Part shown: piece by piece, positions 28,374 through 31,564 of the stretch
How the letters are laid out: each line of letters begins with the position of its first letter
Position numbering within the stretch: the first letter of the stretch is position 1
Assembly: GCA_019561615.1 (NCBI GenBank)
Contig: JAHEQA010000045.1
Span: forward strand, 35,740 to 72,536
Reading direction: 5' to 3'
Length of the DNA stretch: 36,797 nucleotides
DNA from: Methanothermococcus sp. SCGC AD-155-E23
Lineage (GTDB): Archaea; AGJL01; Methanococci; Methanococcales; Methanococcaceae
Position numbers and translations under genes: made by a program
The notes under the pieces: model-generated
Databases searched by the model: none
What the model was told of the DNA's origin: nothing
Seen by the model: the letters and a program-made list of their open reading frames with translations, nothing else

Positions 28374-28449
28374 TGGTGCGCCAGTCGGGATTTGAACCCG
28401 AGTTGCTGGCTTGGAAGGCCAGAGTGATACCAGGCTACACCACTGGCGC
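28374..28449 (-). tRNA. tRNA-Gly (TCC), CCA encoded
   Basis: GCGCCAG acceptor stem, anticodon arm CTGGC-CT-TCC-AA-GCCAG, T-loop GTTCAAATC, 3' ACCA. Confidence 0.96.
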
Positions 28450-28458
28450 ACTACAAAG

Positions 28459-28531
28459 TGCGGCCTCCGGGATTTGAACCCGGGTACCGGCCGTGGCAGG
28501 GCCGTATGATACCAGGCTACATCAAGGCCGC
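28459..28531 (-). tRNA. tRNA-Gly (GCC), CCA not encoded
   Basis: GCGGCCT acceptor stem, anticodon arm CGGCC-CT-GCC-AC-GGCCG, GTTCAAATC; 9 nt upstream of tRNA-Gly(TCC). Confidence 0.96.
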
Positions 28532-29507: not shown

Positions 29508-30293
29508 CTAGGGCTGTATTAAACAGCCTTTACTACAGTACCTGTTTTTACACCTGTAAGGTAGGAGGGCCCTCCTTACACTCTCCAGAGCTATATACCC
29601 TGCCTCGTGAAGGATGGTATCCTCCAACTCCCTGTCGTACTCCATACTCCCAAGACATGGGTAGTTGTGATGGGCCTTGATTACCTCCTCCTTTAACTCT
29701 CCCAGAGGCTTTCCTCTTATCCTCTTTGCTATGTAGTAGGTCATGCCACAGGGTGCCGACACCAACACCTTGGCATCCACCACCTTATGCCCCTCTACCT
29801 TTACCTCCATCTGGGGATATCCTATCTTGAAGTAATCTATAAATTTGTTAAGTATCTCCCTTCCCTCCTTCTTCTCTAAGGCGCAGAAAGGTTTTGGATT
29901 CTCAAAGTCCATACCTAATTTTTCACAGATCTCCCTTAGGGTGTTTCTCATAGAGGGGGACAGATCCCTGGGACTCTCAGAGGGCACTATAAGTAATCTA
30001 TACCCCTTATCCCTTATAATATAGGGGAGTTCGTAGAGGAGATCCTGGTGAAGTTGGGCTACTATCACCTCCCCCCTGGGGATCTCAGGGATGTACTCAG
30101 AGGGATCCTCTATAAACTCCTCCCTCCCCACAGGAGGTATAACAACCCTCTCCACCTCCTCCCTATAACTCCACTCTCCACGGCAGTTATAGCAGTCCTC
30201 ACATATCCTACAGAAATCCCTGTCATTTATTAAATGGTGGTAAAATCTCTCCATCCCCTGGTTACCCTCATGATATAGAAAAGTAAGTCTCAT
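29508..30293 (-). CDS. DUF166-like Cys-rich protein
   Basis: FIEDP, LH.DL, PKPFCAL, SAPCG, HHNYPC, DTILH.AG; N-terminal [10 protein letters not shown]. Confidence 0.7.
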
Positions 30294-30357
30294 GATTTTT
30301 CACCAGTTTAATATATTAAAAAAAGAGGGAGAACATTGAAAACAGAAAAATAGTGGT

Positions 30358-30598
30358 TATCCCTCAACACTAACACCATTCCTCATCCTTGGCCTACGCC
30401 ACGTCAGAATGGCTAACCCTATGTTGAGGGGTTATGGGGATTTTTACTATACCCTGATCATCCCCAGGGAAGAACTCCCCTGTCACAGGGCTCACCCTCA
30501 AAATCCCCTTAAATTTAAGTATCCCTTCAATATCGAACCCGCTATCATCGCAGGGGTAATCCCCCTATGCTCCATGTGGGTCGGTTCATTGAAGGGCA
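30358..30598 (-). ncRNA. Three-hairpin box H/ACA-type pseudouridylation guide sRNA (AUA boxes), predicted 23S rRNA targets U2504, U1917 and U1915 (E. coli numbering)
   Basis: Hairpins at 30523-30596, 30436-30508 and 30361-30430. Each has a perfect 9-bp basal stem, an internal loop, an upper stem, a (U)GA...GAUGA K-turn and AUA directly 3' of the stem. It has its own TATA box and a downstream T-tract. Confidence 0.88.
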
Positions 30599-30621
30599 TT
30601 GATCTATATAGTAGGATCTCC

Positions 30622-30633
30622 TATATAAACTTT
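30622..30633 (-). promoter_or_regulatory. BRE/TATA promoter of the H/ACA sRNA
   Basis: AAAG-TTTATATA about 25 nt upstream of hairpin 1, overlapping the nadA stop codon. Confidence 0.75.
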
Positions 30634-31564
30634 AACCTCCACTGATAGATAGCATATAGTCGATAGCCCTTTTAGCCCTCTCTATTATCTCCTCATCTAG
30701 TACAACCTCGTACTTCTCCTCTACTAAACACCTCTCCAACTTCTCAAGGGTTATCCTCTTCATGGGCTCACAGATGGCATCCTCCCTTAGAGGTATTAAC
30801 TTCTTCTCCTCCCCCCTCTTTTCCAACTCTATCTTCAGCCTAGTTATCATGTCCACCTCGGTACCTATTATAAATACCTTCTCAGGGGAGTTGAGAACAT
30901 GTTTAACCATACCCCCTGTACTGTAGACGTAATCTGCCATCTCCTGGACATCAGGGTCACACTCAGGATGCACTAAGACCTGGGCATCTGGATACTTCTT
31001 TTTAACCCTCAATATATCCTCAACTGTGAACTTCTTATGTACGTAGCAGTGGCCATCTTCAGGCACTGGGATTATCTTCTTCCCAGTTCTCTTCTCCACG
31101 TAGTATCCAAGGTTTCTATCTGGCCCAAATATAATCTCATCCTCTTTAAAGGAGTTAACCACGATATGGGCATTTGCAGAGGTACATACTCCATCTGCCA
31201 GAACCTTGACCTCTGAGAGGGTATTTATGTATATAACCACCTTGGCGTTGGGATGCCTCTTTTTAGCCTCCATTATCATCTCAGGGGATAGTTGATGGGC
31301 CATGGGGCACTCTGTATCTTTAATCTCAGGTATCAGTACTTTCTTGTCCTTGTTAAGTATCTTTGCAGTTTCAGCCATAAAATCCACACCACAGAATACC
31401 ACAATATCGGCATCTGTCTTCTCAGCTATCCTACAGAGCTCCAGGGAGTCACCTATAAAATCGGCAACCCTCTGGATCTCTTCAGGTTGATAGTTGTGGG
31501 CGAGTATTATGGCGTTTTTCTCCCTCTTTAGTTTATCAATCCTCTCCCTTATGCCCATCACCAT
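30632..31564 (-). CDS. nadA: Quinolinate synthase
   Basis: ILAHNYQ, GDSL, FCGVDFMAETAK, CPMA, YINT, CTSANA, CYVH, VHPEC, STGGM, CEPMK. Confidence 0.96.
   Translation of the reverse strand: MVMGIRERIDKLKREKNAIILAHNYQPEEIQRVADFIGDSLELCRIAEKTDADIVVFCGVDFMAETAKILNKDKKVLIPEIKDTECPMAHQLSPEMIMEAKKRHPNAKVVIYINTLSEVKVLADGVCTSANAHIVVNSFKEDEIIFGPDRNLGYYVEKRTGKKIIPVPEDGHCYVHKKFTVEDILRVKKKYPDAQVLVHPECDPDVQEMADYVYSTGGMVKHVLNSPEKVFIIGTEVDMITRLKIELEKRGEEKKLIPLREDAICEPMKRITLEKLERCLVEEKYEVVLDEEIIERAKRAIDYMLSISGG

What the first reader, a model, noticed from the sequence alone, without database searches (positions are those of the whole stretch)
30358..30633. Hidden three-module H/ACA guide RNA with AUA boxes aimed at 23S helix 69 and the peptidyl-transferase loop
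Seen in sequence: the nadA-DUF166 gap holds three consecutive minus-strand hairpins with perfect 9-bp basal stems (CCCUUCAAU/AUUGAAGGG, GGGGAUUUU/AAAAUCCCC, CCCUCAACA/UGUUGAGGG). Each has a bipartite pocket, a GA...GAUGA K-turn and AUA straight after the stem. The unit sits behind a TATA box and ends before a T-tract. The pockets are GAACCGA/UCGAU, GAGGGU/UAGU and AGGGUUA/GUUA, and in all three the 3' guide begins 14 nt before the box, which is the canonical spacing. Inference, using conserved archaeal 23S sequence recalled from memory: module 1 pairs AUCGA-[U2504]G-UCGGUUC, module 2 pairs ACUA-[U1917]A-ACCCUC, and module 3 pairs UAAC-[U1915]A-UAACCCU. Established: archaeal H/ACA RNAs use L7Ae K-turns and Cbf5, and H69 guides are known in other archaea. 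The unusual points are one transcript covering three functional-core sites, uniform AUA instead of ACA, and concealment under a spurious ORF.
Basis: partly seen in the sequence, partly recalled or inferred. Interest (0 to 1): 0.85.

Follow-up and report, generated by a model that had tools for sequence, protein, structure and literature searches.

The report
Three-hairpin H/ACA pseudouridine guide RNA
This gap between two genes encodes a small RNA that very likely guides pseudouridine formation in the core of the large ribosomal RNA; it belongs to an already known archaeal family, but one of its three guide pockets seems to have been re-aimed in this lineage.

Summary
The minus strand at 30596-30358 holds three hairpins. 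Each has a perfect 9-bp basal stem, GA/GAUGA K-turn motifs, an AUA box directly after the stem and a 3' guide starting 14 nt before the box. A TTTATATA box lies upstream and a T-tract downstream.

It is not a new kind of RNA. Rfam's HgcG (Pab40/Pf7) three-hairpin H/ACA family matches the whole element at E=9e-10, 40.3 bits, below its gathering score of 77. Hairpin 3 shares that family's helix-69 pocket. The element is conserved across Methanococcales, with compensatory changes in its stems and a conserved TATA box.

This MAG lacks the 3' half of its 23S, so targets were checked on eight relatives' 23S:
- Hairpin 1 fits U2504.
- Hairpin 3 fits U1915.
- Hairpin 2 fits U1917 (10 Watson-Crick pairs).

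In 27 of 30 genomes hairpin 2 instead fits the A loop (U2554/U2555). Only this window and two close relatives carry the changed pocket, so re-aiming or dual use is the one fresh point.

AUA is a known ANA variant, here used throughout the genus. The 78-aa opposite-strand ORF is not conserved. No RNA data could be found.

The parts
30622..30629 (-). TATA box (TTTATATA), directly after the nadA stop codon and about 25 nt upstream of hairpin 1
   Evidence: A TATA-like octamer lies at the same distance in relatives although the upstream genes differ. By regex, 25 of 30 genomes have one 30-35 nt before the AACCGACC anchor. One more (L030) was first matched further upstream but shows TTTTATATAA at the shared place. 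Four carry CTATAAATA there.
30520..30596 (-). Hairpin 1. Basal stem 30596-30588 / 30531-30523; 5' guide GAACCGA 30587-30581; 3' guide UCGAU 30536-30532; AUA 30522-30520. Predicted target: 23S U2504 (E. coli numbering).
   Evidence: AUCGA-UG-UCGGUUU, 5+7 pairs; 2 of 300 shuffled pockets reached this score. for numbering. A basal stem plus ANA box is kept in 30 of 30 genomes, with 15 stem variants.
30433..30508 (-). Hairpin 2. Basal stem 30508-30500 / 30444-30436; 5' pocket GAGGGUGAG 30499-30491; 3' pocket UAUAGUA 30451-30445; AUA 30435-30433. Best fit: helix 69 U1917. A weaker wobble fit to A-loop U2554/U2555 remains.
   Evidence: Upper-stem covariation (CCC/GGG, UCG/CGA, UUG/CAA). Basal stem kept in 30 of 30 genomes, with 13 variants.
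30358..30430 (-). Hairpin 3. Basal stem 30430-30422 / 30369-30361; 5' guide AGGGUUA 30420-30414; 3' guide GUUA 30374-30371; AUA 30360-30358. Predicted target: helix 69 U1915.
   Evidence: best-aligned part of the HgcG match; UAAC-UA-UAACCCU, 4+7 pairs; 8 of 300 shuffles; 11 of 20 pairs with changes on both sides; 91.1% of cells paired against 34.5-45.3% when slid; 68.5-92.1 bits in 19 of 19 three-hairpin loci.
30346..30350 (-). T-tract (TTTTT), a likely archaeal termination signal; a second TTTT follows at 30342-30339
   Evidence: Runs of four or more T also lie shortly after box 3 in the relatives printed. They were read by eye and not counted.
30409..30645 (+). 78-aa ORF on the opposite strand, judged spurious
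   Evidence: No Pfam family. An ORF of this kind is present in only 2 of 13 same-genus genomes, this one and its 98%-identical relative.

Best explanation
The gap between nadA and the DUF166 gene encodes a small RNA of about 245 nt, transcribed from its own TATA promoter on the minus strand. It is the Methanothermococcus ortholog of the known archaeal three-hairpin box H/ACA guide RNA (Afu4 / Pf7 / Pab40, Rfam HgcG).

Inferred from the family's established mechanism: each hairpin binds L7Ae at its K-turn. Cbf5-Nop10-Gar1 bind the basal stem and the AUA box. The two strands of the internal loop pair with 23S rRNA on either side of an unpaired U-N. Cbf5 then converts that U, held about 14 nt from the box, to pseudouridine.

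Shown here by complementarity to relatives' 23S: hairpin 1 fits U2504 at the peptidyl-transferase centre, and hairpin 3 fits U1915 in the helix 69 loop.

Hairpin 2 is ancestrally an A-loop guide (U2555 or U2554). In this window and two close relatives, five derived changes give it ten Watson-Crick pairs to the U1917 site of helix 69 and leave only a wobble-weakened fit to the A loop. It most likely now serves U1917, possibly both sites.
For: 1. Family match. HgcG gives E=9e-10, 40.3 bits, over model positions 1-276 at 30353-30658 minus. The same family matches 5 of 5 relatives' loci at 27.7-47.5 bits.

2. Anatomy. Three hairpins with 9-bp basal stems, GA/GAUGA motifs, an ANA box and 14-nt spacing; fold z = -4.65.

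3. Conservation. The element matched in 33 of 41 genomes searched, counting this one, and in 12 of 12 other genomes of the genus.

4. Covariation.
- 17 of 52 RNAalifold pairs carry compensatory changes.
- In hairpin 3, 11 of 20 pairs have changes on both sides, and 0 of 500 shuffles reached the covariation score.
- Basal stem plus ANA box is kept in 30/30, 30/30 and 19/19 sequences, with 15, 13 and 11 stem variants.

5. Own promoter. A TATA box sits at a fixed distance although the upstream genes differ.

6. Targets.
- The helix 69, 2504 and A-loop sites are identical in 8 of 8 relatives' 23S, apart from flank changes at the 2504 site.
- Pairings and shuffle controls are; E. coli numbering comes from alignment to MG1655 rrlH.
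- No better target exists in this organism's available 23S 5' half, partial 16S or 32 tRNAs: scores there are at most 9.5, against 10-11.5.

7. Hairpin 2.
- 24 of 30 genomes have 9-10 Watson-Crick pairs to the A loop.
- 3 have 8 Watson-Crick pairs plus 1 G-U.
- The 3 genomes of this window's group have 6 plus 3 G-U to the A loop, but 10 Watson-Crick pairs to the U1917 site. None of the other 27 can pair there.
- Arm energies at 37 C are -9.2 (U1917) against -6.4/-6.9 (A loop) for this window. The ancestral-type pocket gives -12.7/-13.4 on the A loop.

8. Proteins. Nop10 is present (79.8 bits) and a Gar1-like ORF scores 27.9 bits, just under the 29.3 cut-off. Cbf5 is present in 5 of 5 genus relatives.

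9. Literature.
- Pab40/Pf7/Afu4 have three motifs, motif 3 guides helix 69, the box is ANA and the spacing is 14-15 nt (passages and section 27 of PMC2377435).
- A Pab40.3-related motif has been reported in M. jannaschii (passages and section 14 of PMC4652768).
Against: - The HgcG score is below Rfam's gathering score (40.3 against 77), and the gathering-threshold scan found only two tRNAs.
- The organism's own helix 69, A loop and 2504 region are not in the assembly. Two metagenome scans found no contig to fill the gap. All targets therefore rest on relatives, the closest being 96.9% identical over the shared 23S 5' half.
- Cbf5 was not found in this 86%-complete MAG. Only PUA-like hits of about 30 bits appeared.
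- Hairpin 2's assignment is statistically weak on its own: 24 of 300 shuffled pockets reach its score. It also needs 3-nt and 2-nt spacers next to the upper stem.
- Hairpins 1 and 2 do not share targets with Pab40 motifs 1 and 2 (table; mapping by my own inference).
- No experiment here shows a transcript, protein binding or pseudouridine.
Confidence: 0.9

Rival explanations
1. Hairpin 2 of this window is still an A-loop guide, tolerating G-U wobbles, or is decaying. The fit to helix 69 U1917 would then be a by-product of the likeness of the two target sequences.
For: - All 27 other genomes fit the A loop, and none fits U1917.
- The window's pocket still forms 9 pairs with the A loop, 3 of them G-U, in the same register as its relatives.
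- The U1917 pairing leaves GAG and UA spacers at the upper stem.
- 24 of 300 shuffled pockets reach the same score.
- Hairpin 3's 3' strand (GUUAGUG) can itself reach U1917 in a shifted register, ACUA-UA-ACCCU. This resembles Haloferax SL2, which makes both helix 69 pseudouridines.
Against: - All five derived changes create Watson-Crick pairs with the U1917 site, and four of them weaken the A-loop pairing (my reading of the alignment).
- A-loop arm energy falls from about -13 to about -6.5 kcal/mol, while U1917 gives -9.2. That is more than the accepted hairpin 3 - U1915 pairing at -7.8.
- The changed pocket is identical in three species-level genomes whose hairpin otherwise differs at a few positions. 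That argues for maintenance rather than decay.
Confidence: 0.3
2. The structured stretch is a cis-acting element of a neighbouring mRNA, either the nadA 3' end or a DUF166 leader or riboswitch, rather than an independent guide RNA.
For: It lies between two genes on the same strand. No RNA data were available to define transcript ends.
Against: - The element keeps its own TATA box at a fixed distance in genomes whose upstream sequence is unrelated.
- In a second family hairpin 3 stands alone at a different locus, and one genome carries hairpins 1 and 3 without hairpin 2. The hairpins therefore behave as modules independent of nadA and DUF166.
- The only significant Rfam matches are H/ACA families; no riboswitch matched here.
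- The pockets are complementary to rRNA.
Confidence: 0.03
3. The plus-strand 78-aa ORF (30409-30645) is a real small-protein gene and the hairpins are incidental.
For: An open frame with an ATG start exists.
Against: - No Pfam family matched.
- The frame is open in only 2 of 13 same-genus genomes. The longest alternatives elsewhere are 40-47 aa or none.
- Substitutions follow RNA pairing, not codons.
Confidence: 0.01

Closest known systems
Pab40 / Pf7 / Pho40 (Rfam RF00064 HgcG) of Pyrococcus, and Afu4 of Archaeoglobus fulgidus
   Same: - One transcript carries three box H/ACA hairpins, each with a K-turn and an ANA box.
- Hairpin 3 has the same pocket core (GGUUA ... GUUA) and the same target, the conserved U in the helix 69 loop.
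- Its other hairpins target domain V of 23S, the peptidyl-transferase region, as hairpin 1 does here.
- Motif 2 is already documented as evolutionarily labile in target choice.
   Different: - The score is below Rfam's gathering score.
- Hairpin 1 here fits U2504. Pab40 motif 1 guides P. abyssi 2588, which by my offset estimate and the HgcG consensus pocket is about 8 nt upstream, near E. coli 2496. This was not verified against a P. abyssi sequence.
- Hairpin 2 here fits U1917, and the A loop in relatives. Pab40 motif 2 acts at P. abyssi 1932, and the Pf7/Afu4 targets are disputed.
- The boxes here are AUA.
Haloferax volcanii sR-h45 (double hairpin)
   Same: It guides the two helix 69 pseudouridines plus one site in the peptidyl-transferase region. 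Its first hairpin uses AUA as its ANA box.
   Different: It has two hairpins, not three. A single hairpin makes both helix 69 pseudouridines in an atypical pocket. In this window each helix 69 U would have its own hairpin.
Pab40.3-related H/ACA motif reported in Methanocaldococcus jannaschii
   Same: It is said to guide the position equivalent to P. abyssi L2016 in helix 69. In genomes of the second Methanococcales family I found a stand-alone hairpin-3 homolog at 59.7-64.8 bits, which is probably that motif.
   Different: There it is a single hairpin at a separate locus. Here it is fused behind hairpins 1 and 2. The figure that shows it is a supplement I could not open.
Yeast snR191 (Rfam RF01263) and Sulfolobus islandicus sR148
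   Same: Both guide the U1917-equivalent position of helix 69. For sR148 this comes from the table seen; the snR191 targets are recalled. snR191's model weakly matches hairpins 1-2 of the window (26.9 bits, E=0.0003, below its gathering score of 46). Its 3' hairpin aligns on hairpin 2's pocket.
   Different: These are eukaryotic and crenarchaeal RNAs with no shown homology. The likeness is most simply read as convergence on the same target sequence. The snR191 match did not reappear in the larger scan, which included another genome with the changed pocket.

Membership tests
Archaeal box H/ACA guide sRNA | Hairpin with a basal stem, an internal loop (pseudouridylation pocket) and an upper stem | tested here: met
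   Three hairpins; the stems are kept through compensatory changes.
Archaeal box H/ACA guide sRNA | K-turn or K-loop in the upper part of the hairpin (L7Ae site) | tested here: met
   Met at sequence level only. GA on the 5' strand and (G)AUGA on the 3' strand occur in each hairpin, and TGA is invariant in the alignments. L7Ae binding was not testable.
Archaeal box H/ACA guide sRNA | ANA box directly 3' of the basal stem, 14-15 nt from the target position | tested here: met
   AUA follows each stem, with 14 nt from the first 3'-guide base. ATA occurs in 13 of 13 genus genomes at all three hairpins, and ACA in all others.
Archaeal box H/ACA guide sRNA | Two-part complementarity to a stable RNA around an unpaired U-N | tested here: met
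   Met on 23S of relatives. The organism's own 23S lacks these regions.
Archaeal box H/ACA guide sRNA | The genome encodes Cbf5, Nop10, Gar1 and L7Ae | tested here: inconclusive
   Nop10 is present, and a Gar1-like ORF falls just below the cut-off. Cbf5 was not found in this 86%-complete MAG but is present in 5 of 5 genus relatives. L7Ae was not searched.
Archaeal box H/ACA guide sRNA | Expressed as a stable small RNA, with pseudouridine at the predicted sites | not testable with these tools
   No RNA holder was listed. Zero contigs were laid from three metatranscriptome runs.
Rfam RF00064 HgcG (Pab40) | Score at or above the curated gathering score (77 bits) | tested here: not met
   40.3 bits, E=9e-10, full-length match. 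Relatives score 27.7-47.5 bits.
Rfam RF00064 HgcG (Pab40) | Three tandem H/ACA hairpins, the third guiding the conserved helix 69 uridine | tested here: met
.
Rfam RF00064 HgcG (Pab40) | Hairpins 1 and 2 share targets with Pab40 motifs 1 and 2 | tested here: not met
   The targets here are U2504 and U1917 (A loop in relatives). Pab40 has P. abyssi 2588 and 1932. Mapping between the two numberings is my inference.

The most novel reading that the evidence does not exclude
In one Methanothermococcus lineage (this window and two species-level relatives), hairpin 2 of a conserved three-hairpin guide RNA has been re-aimed from the ribosomal A loop (U2555/U2554) to helix 69 U1917. The path was one inserted A and four substitutions (three C-to-U, one U-to-G). 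A U in the guide pairs with both A and G, so the intermediate and present pockets can still wobble-pair with the old target. If so, U1915 and U1917 are each served by their own hairpin on one transcript, and the A-loop pseudouridine is lost or reduced. This would be a natural, stepwise example of how RNA-guided modification sites move.
Probability: 0.5. Interest if true: 0.45.

Novelty: new member of a known kind. Interest (0 to 1): 0.3.

Why it matters
- Annotation. Rfam's gathering threshold misses this RNA in every Methanococcales genome I scanned with Rfam, and an ORF caller can place a spurious 78-aa gene on it. It should be annotated as an H/ACA guide RNA of the HgcG/Pab40/Afu4 family.
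- Biology. It predicts pseudouridines at three functionally central 23S positions in thermophilic methanogens, where rRNA modification maps are sparse.
- Comparative series. The 30-genome set gives a clean natural series of pocket states for hairpin 2: ancestral, intermediate and derived. That makes a specific question directly testable: can a guide change target through wobble-compatible intermediates?
- AUA box. The genus-wide switch of all three boxes from ACA to AUA (39 of 39 boxes against 40 of 40) is a small further curiosity. It fits the exposed middle base of the ANA box.

Tried and rejected
- Rfam at gathering threshold found only two tRNAs in the window.
- The organism's own 23S stops near E. 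coli position 1640 and is joined to unrelated sequence. No helix 69, peptidyl-transferase or sarcin-ricin motif in rRNA context lies elsewhere in the MAG. The two closest relatives (G011, G009) have no 23S either.
- Two metagenome scans found nothing. One used a 31-mer specific to this lineage's 23S, the other a 27-mer of hairpin 2.
- RNA evidence: no RNA holder was listed. Three metatranscriptome runs of the same study gave 0 contigs on 30200-30800 at 85% likeness. This says nothing either way about expression.
- A loose whole-genome search for other guides to the five sites was too noisy to use, although it did recover hairpins 2 and 3.
- One descriptor script did not return.
- A stricter H/ACA descriptor listed 32 candidates, with hairpins 3 and 2 among the top three. 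It missed hairpin 1. The rest looked like chance hits in coding sequence and were not checked further. I therefore cannot say whether another A-loop or U1917 guide exists in this genome.
- Model R1 (hairpin 3) found one further weak hit in the genome (C26, 20.7 bits, E=0.167). On reading, it lies over the start of a likely membrane-protein gene, and I rejected it.
- MAFFT alignments of hairpins 1 and 2 put some basal stems out of register. I therefore counted stems per sequence in a script instead of with the count of structure pairs.
- A box C/D reading was considered because of the GAUGA and CUGA motifs. It was dropped because no C/D family matched and the motifs sit inside hairpins, as in H/ACA K-turns.
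- I did not test whether Cbf5's PUA domain co-varies with the ACA-to-AUA switch. The review passage says the middle base is exposed.
- Four papers were not held: PMC124278, PMC149196, PMC1370243 and Thebault 2006, known only from the reference list.
- Supplementary figures S1 of PMC2377435 and S10-S11 of PMC4652768 could not be seen. They may bear on the Afu4/Pf7 motif-2 targets and on the M. jannaschii motif.
- Three literature calls were rejected for term syntax and re-sent in corrected form. One search found nothing.
Full report
**What is there.**
Read on the minus strand, the gap between nadA (30632-31564) and a DUF166 gene (29508-30293) holds three consecutive hairpins, at 30596-30520, 30508-30433 and 30430-30358. 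Each hairpin has:
- a perfect 9-bp basal stem;
- an internal loop;
- an upper stem interrupted by a GA on the 5' strand and (G)AUGA on the 3' strand;
- AUA directly after the basal stem;
- a first 3'-guide base 14 nt before that box.

TTTATATA (30629-30622) follows the nadA stop codon. TTTTT (30350-30346) follows the last box. The 251-nt stretch folds far better than shuffles (z = -4.65; 0 of 200 shuffles as good).

**What it is.**
At Rfam's gathering thresholds the window shows only two tRNAs. A permissive scan of 30250-30750 matches the HgcG (Pab40) H/ACA family over its whole length (model positions 1-276) at 30353-30658 minus. The score is 40.3 bits and E=9e-10, against a gathering score of 77. 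Hairpin 3 aligns best and shares the family's pocket.

According to Muller et al. 2008 (PMC2377435; passages and section 27 read):
- Pab40, Pf7, Pho40 and Afu4 are three-motif H/ACA sRNAs.
- Motif 3 guides the conserved helix 69 pseudouridine.
- The box is ANA, and the ANA-to-target distance is 14-15 nt.
- Motif 2 differs in specificity between species.

Toffano-Nioche et al. 2015 (PMC4652768; passages and section 14 read) also report a Pab40.3-related motif in M. jannaschii. The element is therefore a diverged member of a known family, not a hidden new class.

**Relatives.**
Record titles of the closest NadA loci name Methanothermococcus. The window lies in a 1.04-Mb, 86%-complete MAG. The element matched in 33 of 41 genomes searched, counting this one. 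That includes all 12 other genomes of the genus, 19 of 22 of the family and 13 of 17 of a second family.

Nineteen genomes carry all three hairpins in tandem. Eleven loci of the second family carry hairpins 1 and 2 only. In three genomes of that family that I searched, a hairpin-3 homolog stands alone elsewhere (59.7-64.8 bits). One genome of another genus has hairpins 1 and 3 without 2. The hairpins behave as modules.

**Structure is under selection.**
- RNAalifold on the 19 full-length copies predicts 52 pairs, 17 of them with compensatory changes.
- For hairpin 3, with a structure I specified, 91.1% of cells pair, against 34.5-45.3% when the partner is slid.
- In that structure 11 of 20 pairs have changes on both sides, and 0 of 500 shuffles reach the covariation score. 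These sequences are related, so the shuffle control overstates the case; the slid control is the fairer one.
- A per-sequence parse finds a basal stem followed by an ANA box in 30 of 30 (hairpin 1), 30 of 30 (hairpin 2) and 19 of 19 (hairpin 3) sequences. There are 15, 13 and 11 distinct stem variants.
- The pockets are nearly invariant.

**Transcription signals.**
A TATA-like octamer lies at the same distance upstream in all 30 genomes by eye, although the upstream sequence is otherwise unrelated. By regex:
- 25 of 30 fall 30-35 nt before a fixed anchor;
- one genome was first matched further upstream but has the shared box;
- four carry CTATAAATA there.

This supports an independent transcription unit starting a few bases before hairpin 1. 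That matches the Pab40 transcript start reported.

**Targets.**
The MAG's 23S ends near E. coli position 1640 and is joined to unrelated DNA. Helix 69, the A loop and the 2504 region are not in the assembly. I therefore used complete 23S genes from eight relatives. The closest is 96.9% identical to the window organism over the shared 5' half. The helix 69 and A-loop sites are identical in 8 of 8, and the 2504 site differs only in its flanks. E. coli numbering was set by aligning one relative to MG1655 rrlH.

| Hairpin | Pairing | Pairs | Target | Shuffled pockets reaching the score |
|---|---|---|---|---|
| 1 | AUCGA-UG-UCGGUUU | 5+7 | U2504 | 2 of 300 |
| 3 | UAAC-UA-UAACCCU | 4+7 | U1915 | 8 of 300 |
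| 2 | ACUA-UA-ACCCUC | 4+6 | U1917 | 24 of 300 |

In the organism's own available stable RNAs (23S 5' half, partial 16S, 32 tRNAs), nothing scores above 9.5. Hairpin 2's is the weakest statistically.

**Hairpin 2 is a derived state.**
In 24 of 30 genomes the pocket (GGGCG ... ACAGC) makes 9-10 Watson-Crick pairs with the A loop (GCUGU-UC-GCCCA or GCUG-UU-CGCCCA, that is U2555 or U2554). Three genomes (G001, G004, G005) make 8 plus one G-U.

The window and two relatives (G011, G009) make 6 plus three G-U with the A loop, but 10 Watson-Crick pairs with the U1917 site. None of the other 27 can pair there.

Reading the alignment, five changes separate the window's pocket from the ancestral type: an inserted A, three C-to-U and one U-to-G. 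All five create Watson-Crick pairs with helix 69, and four weaken the A-loop pairing. Arm energies agree:

| Pocket and target | Energy at 37 C (kcal/mol) |
|---|---|
| Window hairpin 2 on U1917 | -9.2 |
| Window hairpin 2 on the A loop | -6.4 / -6.9 |
| Ancestral-type pocket on the A loop | -12.7 / -13.4 |
| Hairpin 3 on U1915 | -7.8 |

I read this as re-aiming, or dual use through wobble pairs, with about even odds against continued A-loop use. Muller et al. describe a specificity change of motif 2 within this same family, so the phenomenon has precedent.

**The AUA boxes.**
ATA occurs at all three boxes in 13 of 13 genomes of the genus, and ACA at every box elsewhere (17, 17 and 6 boxes).
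- The archaeal box is defined as ANA.
- Haloferax sR-h45 uses AUA.
- In the solved RNP the two adenines are bound while the middle base is exposed (passages of PMC1865073).

AUA is thus an accepted variant. Only its genus-wide uniformity is mildly notable.

**Proteins.**
Nop10 is present (79.8 bits), and a Gar1-like ORF scores 27.9 bits, just under the cut-off. Cbf5 was not found in this MAG but is present in 5 of 5 genus relatives. In one of them it lies about 2 kb from a 23S gene. Its absence here may therefore share a cause with the broken rRNA contig; that is an inference.

**The overlapping ORF.**
The 78-aa plus-strand frame has no Pfam match. It is open in only 2 of 13 genus genomes, so I judge it spurious.

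**What could not be shown.**
No RNA run holds the stretch, so expression is inferred from the promoter and from conservation. Protein binding and pseudouridine formation are inferred from the family's established mechanism. The mapping of P. abyssi and A. fulgidus target numbers onto E. coli positions is my own estimate. It rests on offsets, on the HgcG consensus pocket and on recalled positions of conserved pseudouridines, and it may be off by a few bases.

**Verdict.**
This is a real and well-supported box H/ACA guide RNA, a new member of the known HgcG/Pab40/Afu4 family. It has one lineage-specific pocket change worth an experiment.

Noticed in passing
window 28377-28449 and 28459-28531 (minus): Two adjacent tRNA genes (65.4 and 58.1 bits). 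They are the only Rfam matches at gathering threshold in the window.
   Followed up: no
L001 (G000 contig C32) 229-2027: The MAG's 23S gene stops near E. coli position 1640 and runs straight into unrelated sequence. This looks like a misjoin or an assembly break. Domains IV-VI are absent from the whole assembly.
   Followed up: partly
L025 (G036), between hairpins 1 and 2: About 108 nt of extra sequence with long inverted ends sits between hairpins 1 and 2. The gap is 118 nt there, against 10-20 nt elsewhere. It may be a small mobile insertion inside the guide RNA gene.
   Followed up: no
L086 (G013) about 1430-1580: In one genome of another genus of the family, hairpin 1 is followed directly by hairpin 3 and hairpin 2 is missing.
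   Followed up: no
L090 and L091 (G029, G026), around position 1500: A further single H/ACA-like hairpin occurs in genomes of the second family (32-33 bits to the hairpin-3 model, ACA box). Its pocket differs (CGGCCCA ... UAGGAUA) and its target was not identified.
   Followed up: no
G000 whole genome; L098 (G005): cbf5 was not found in this MAG, although Nop10 is present. In relative G005, cbf5 lies about 2 kb from a 23S gene, the region that is broken in this assembly.
   Followed up: partly
alignment A3; 23S of relatives: The outermost base of hairpin 1's 5' guide is A where the 23S target reads ...UCGGUUU (G005). It is G where the target reads ...UCGGUUC (G024). This is one possible case of guide-target co-variation. 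G017 is an exception, and the window has G, which would give a G-U pair if its 23S is like G005's.
   Followed up: partly
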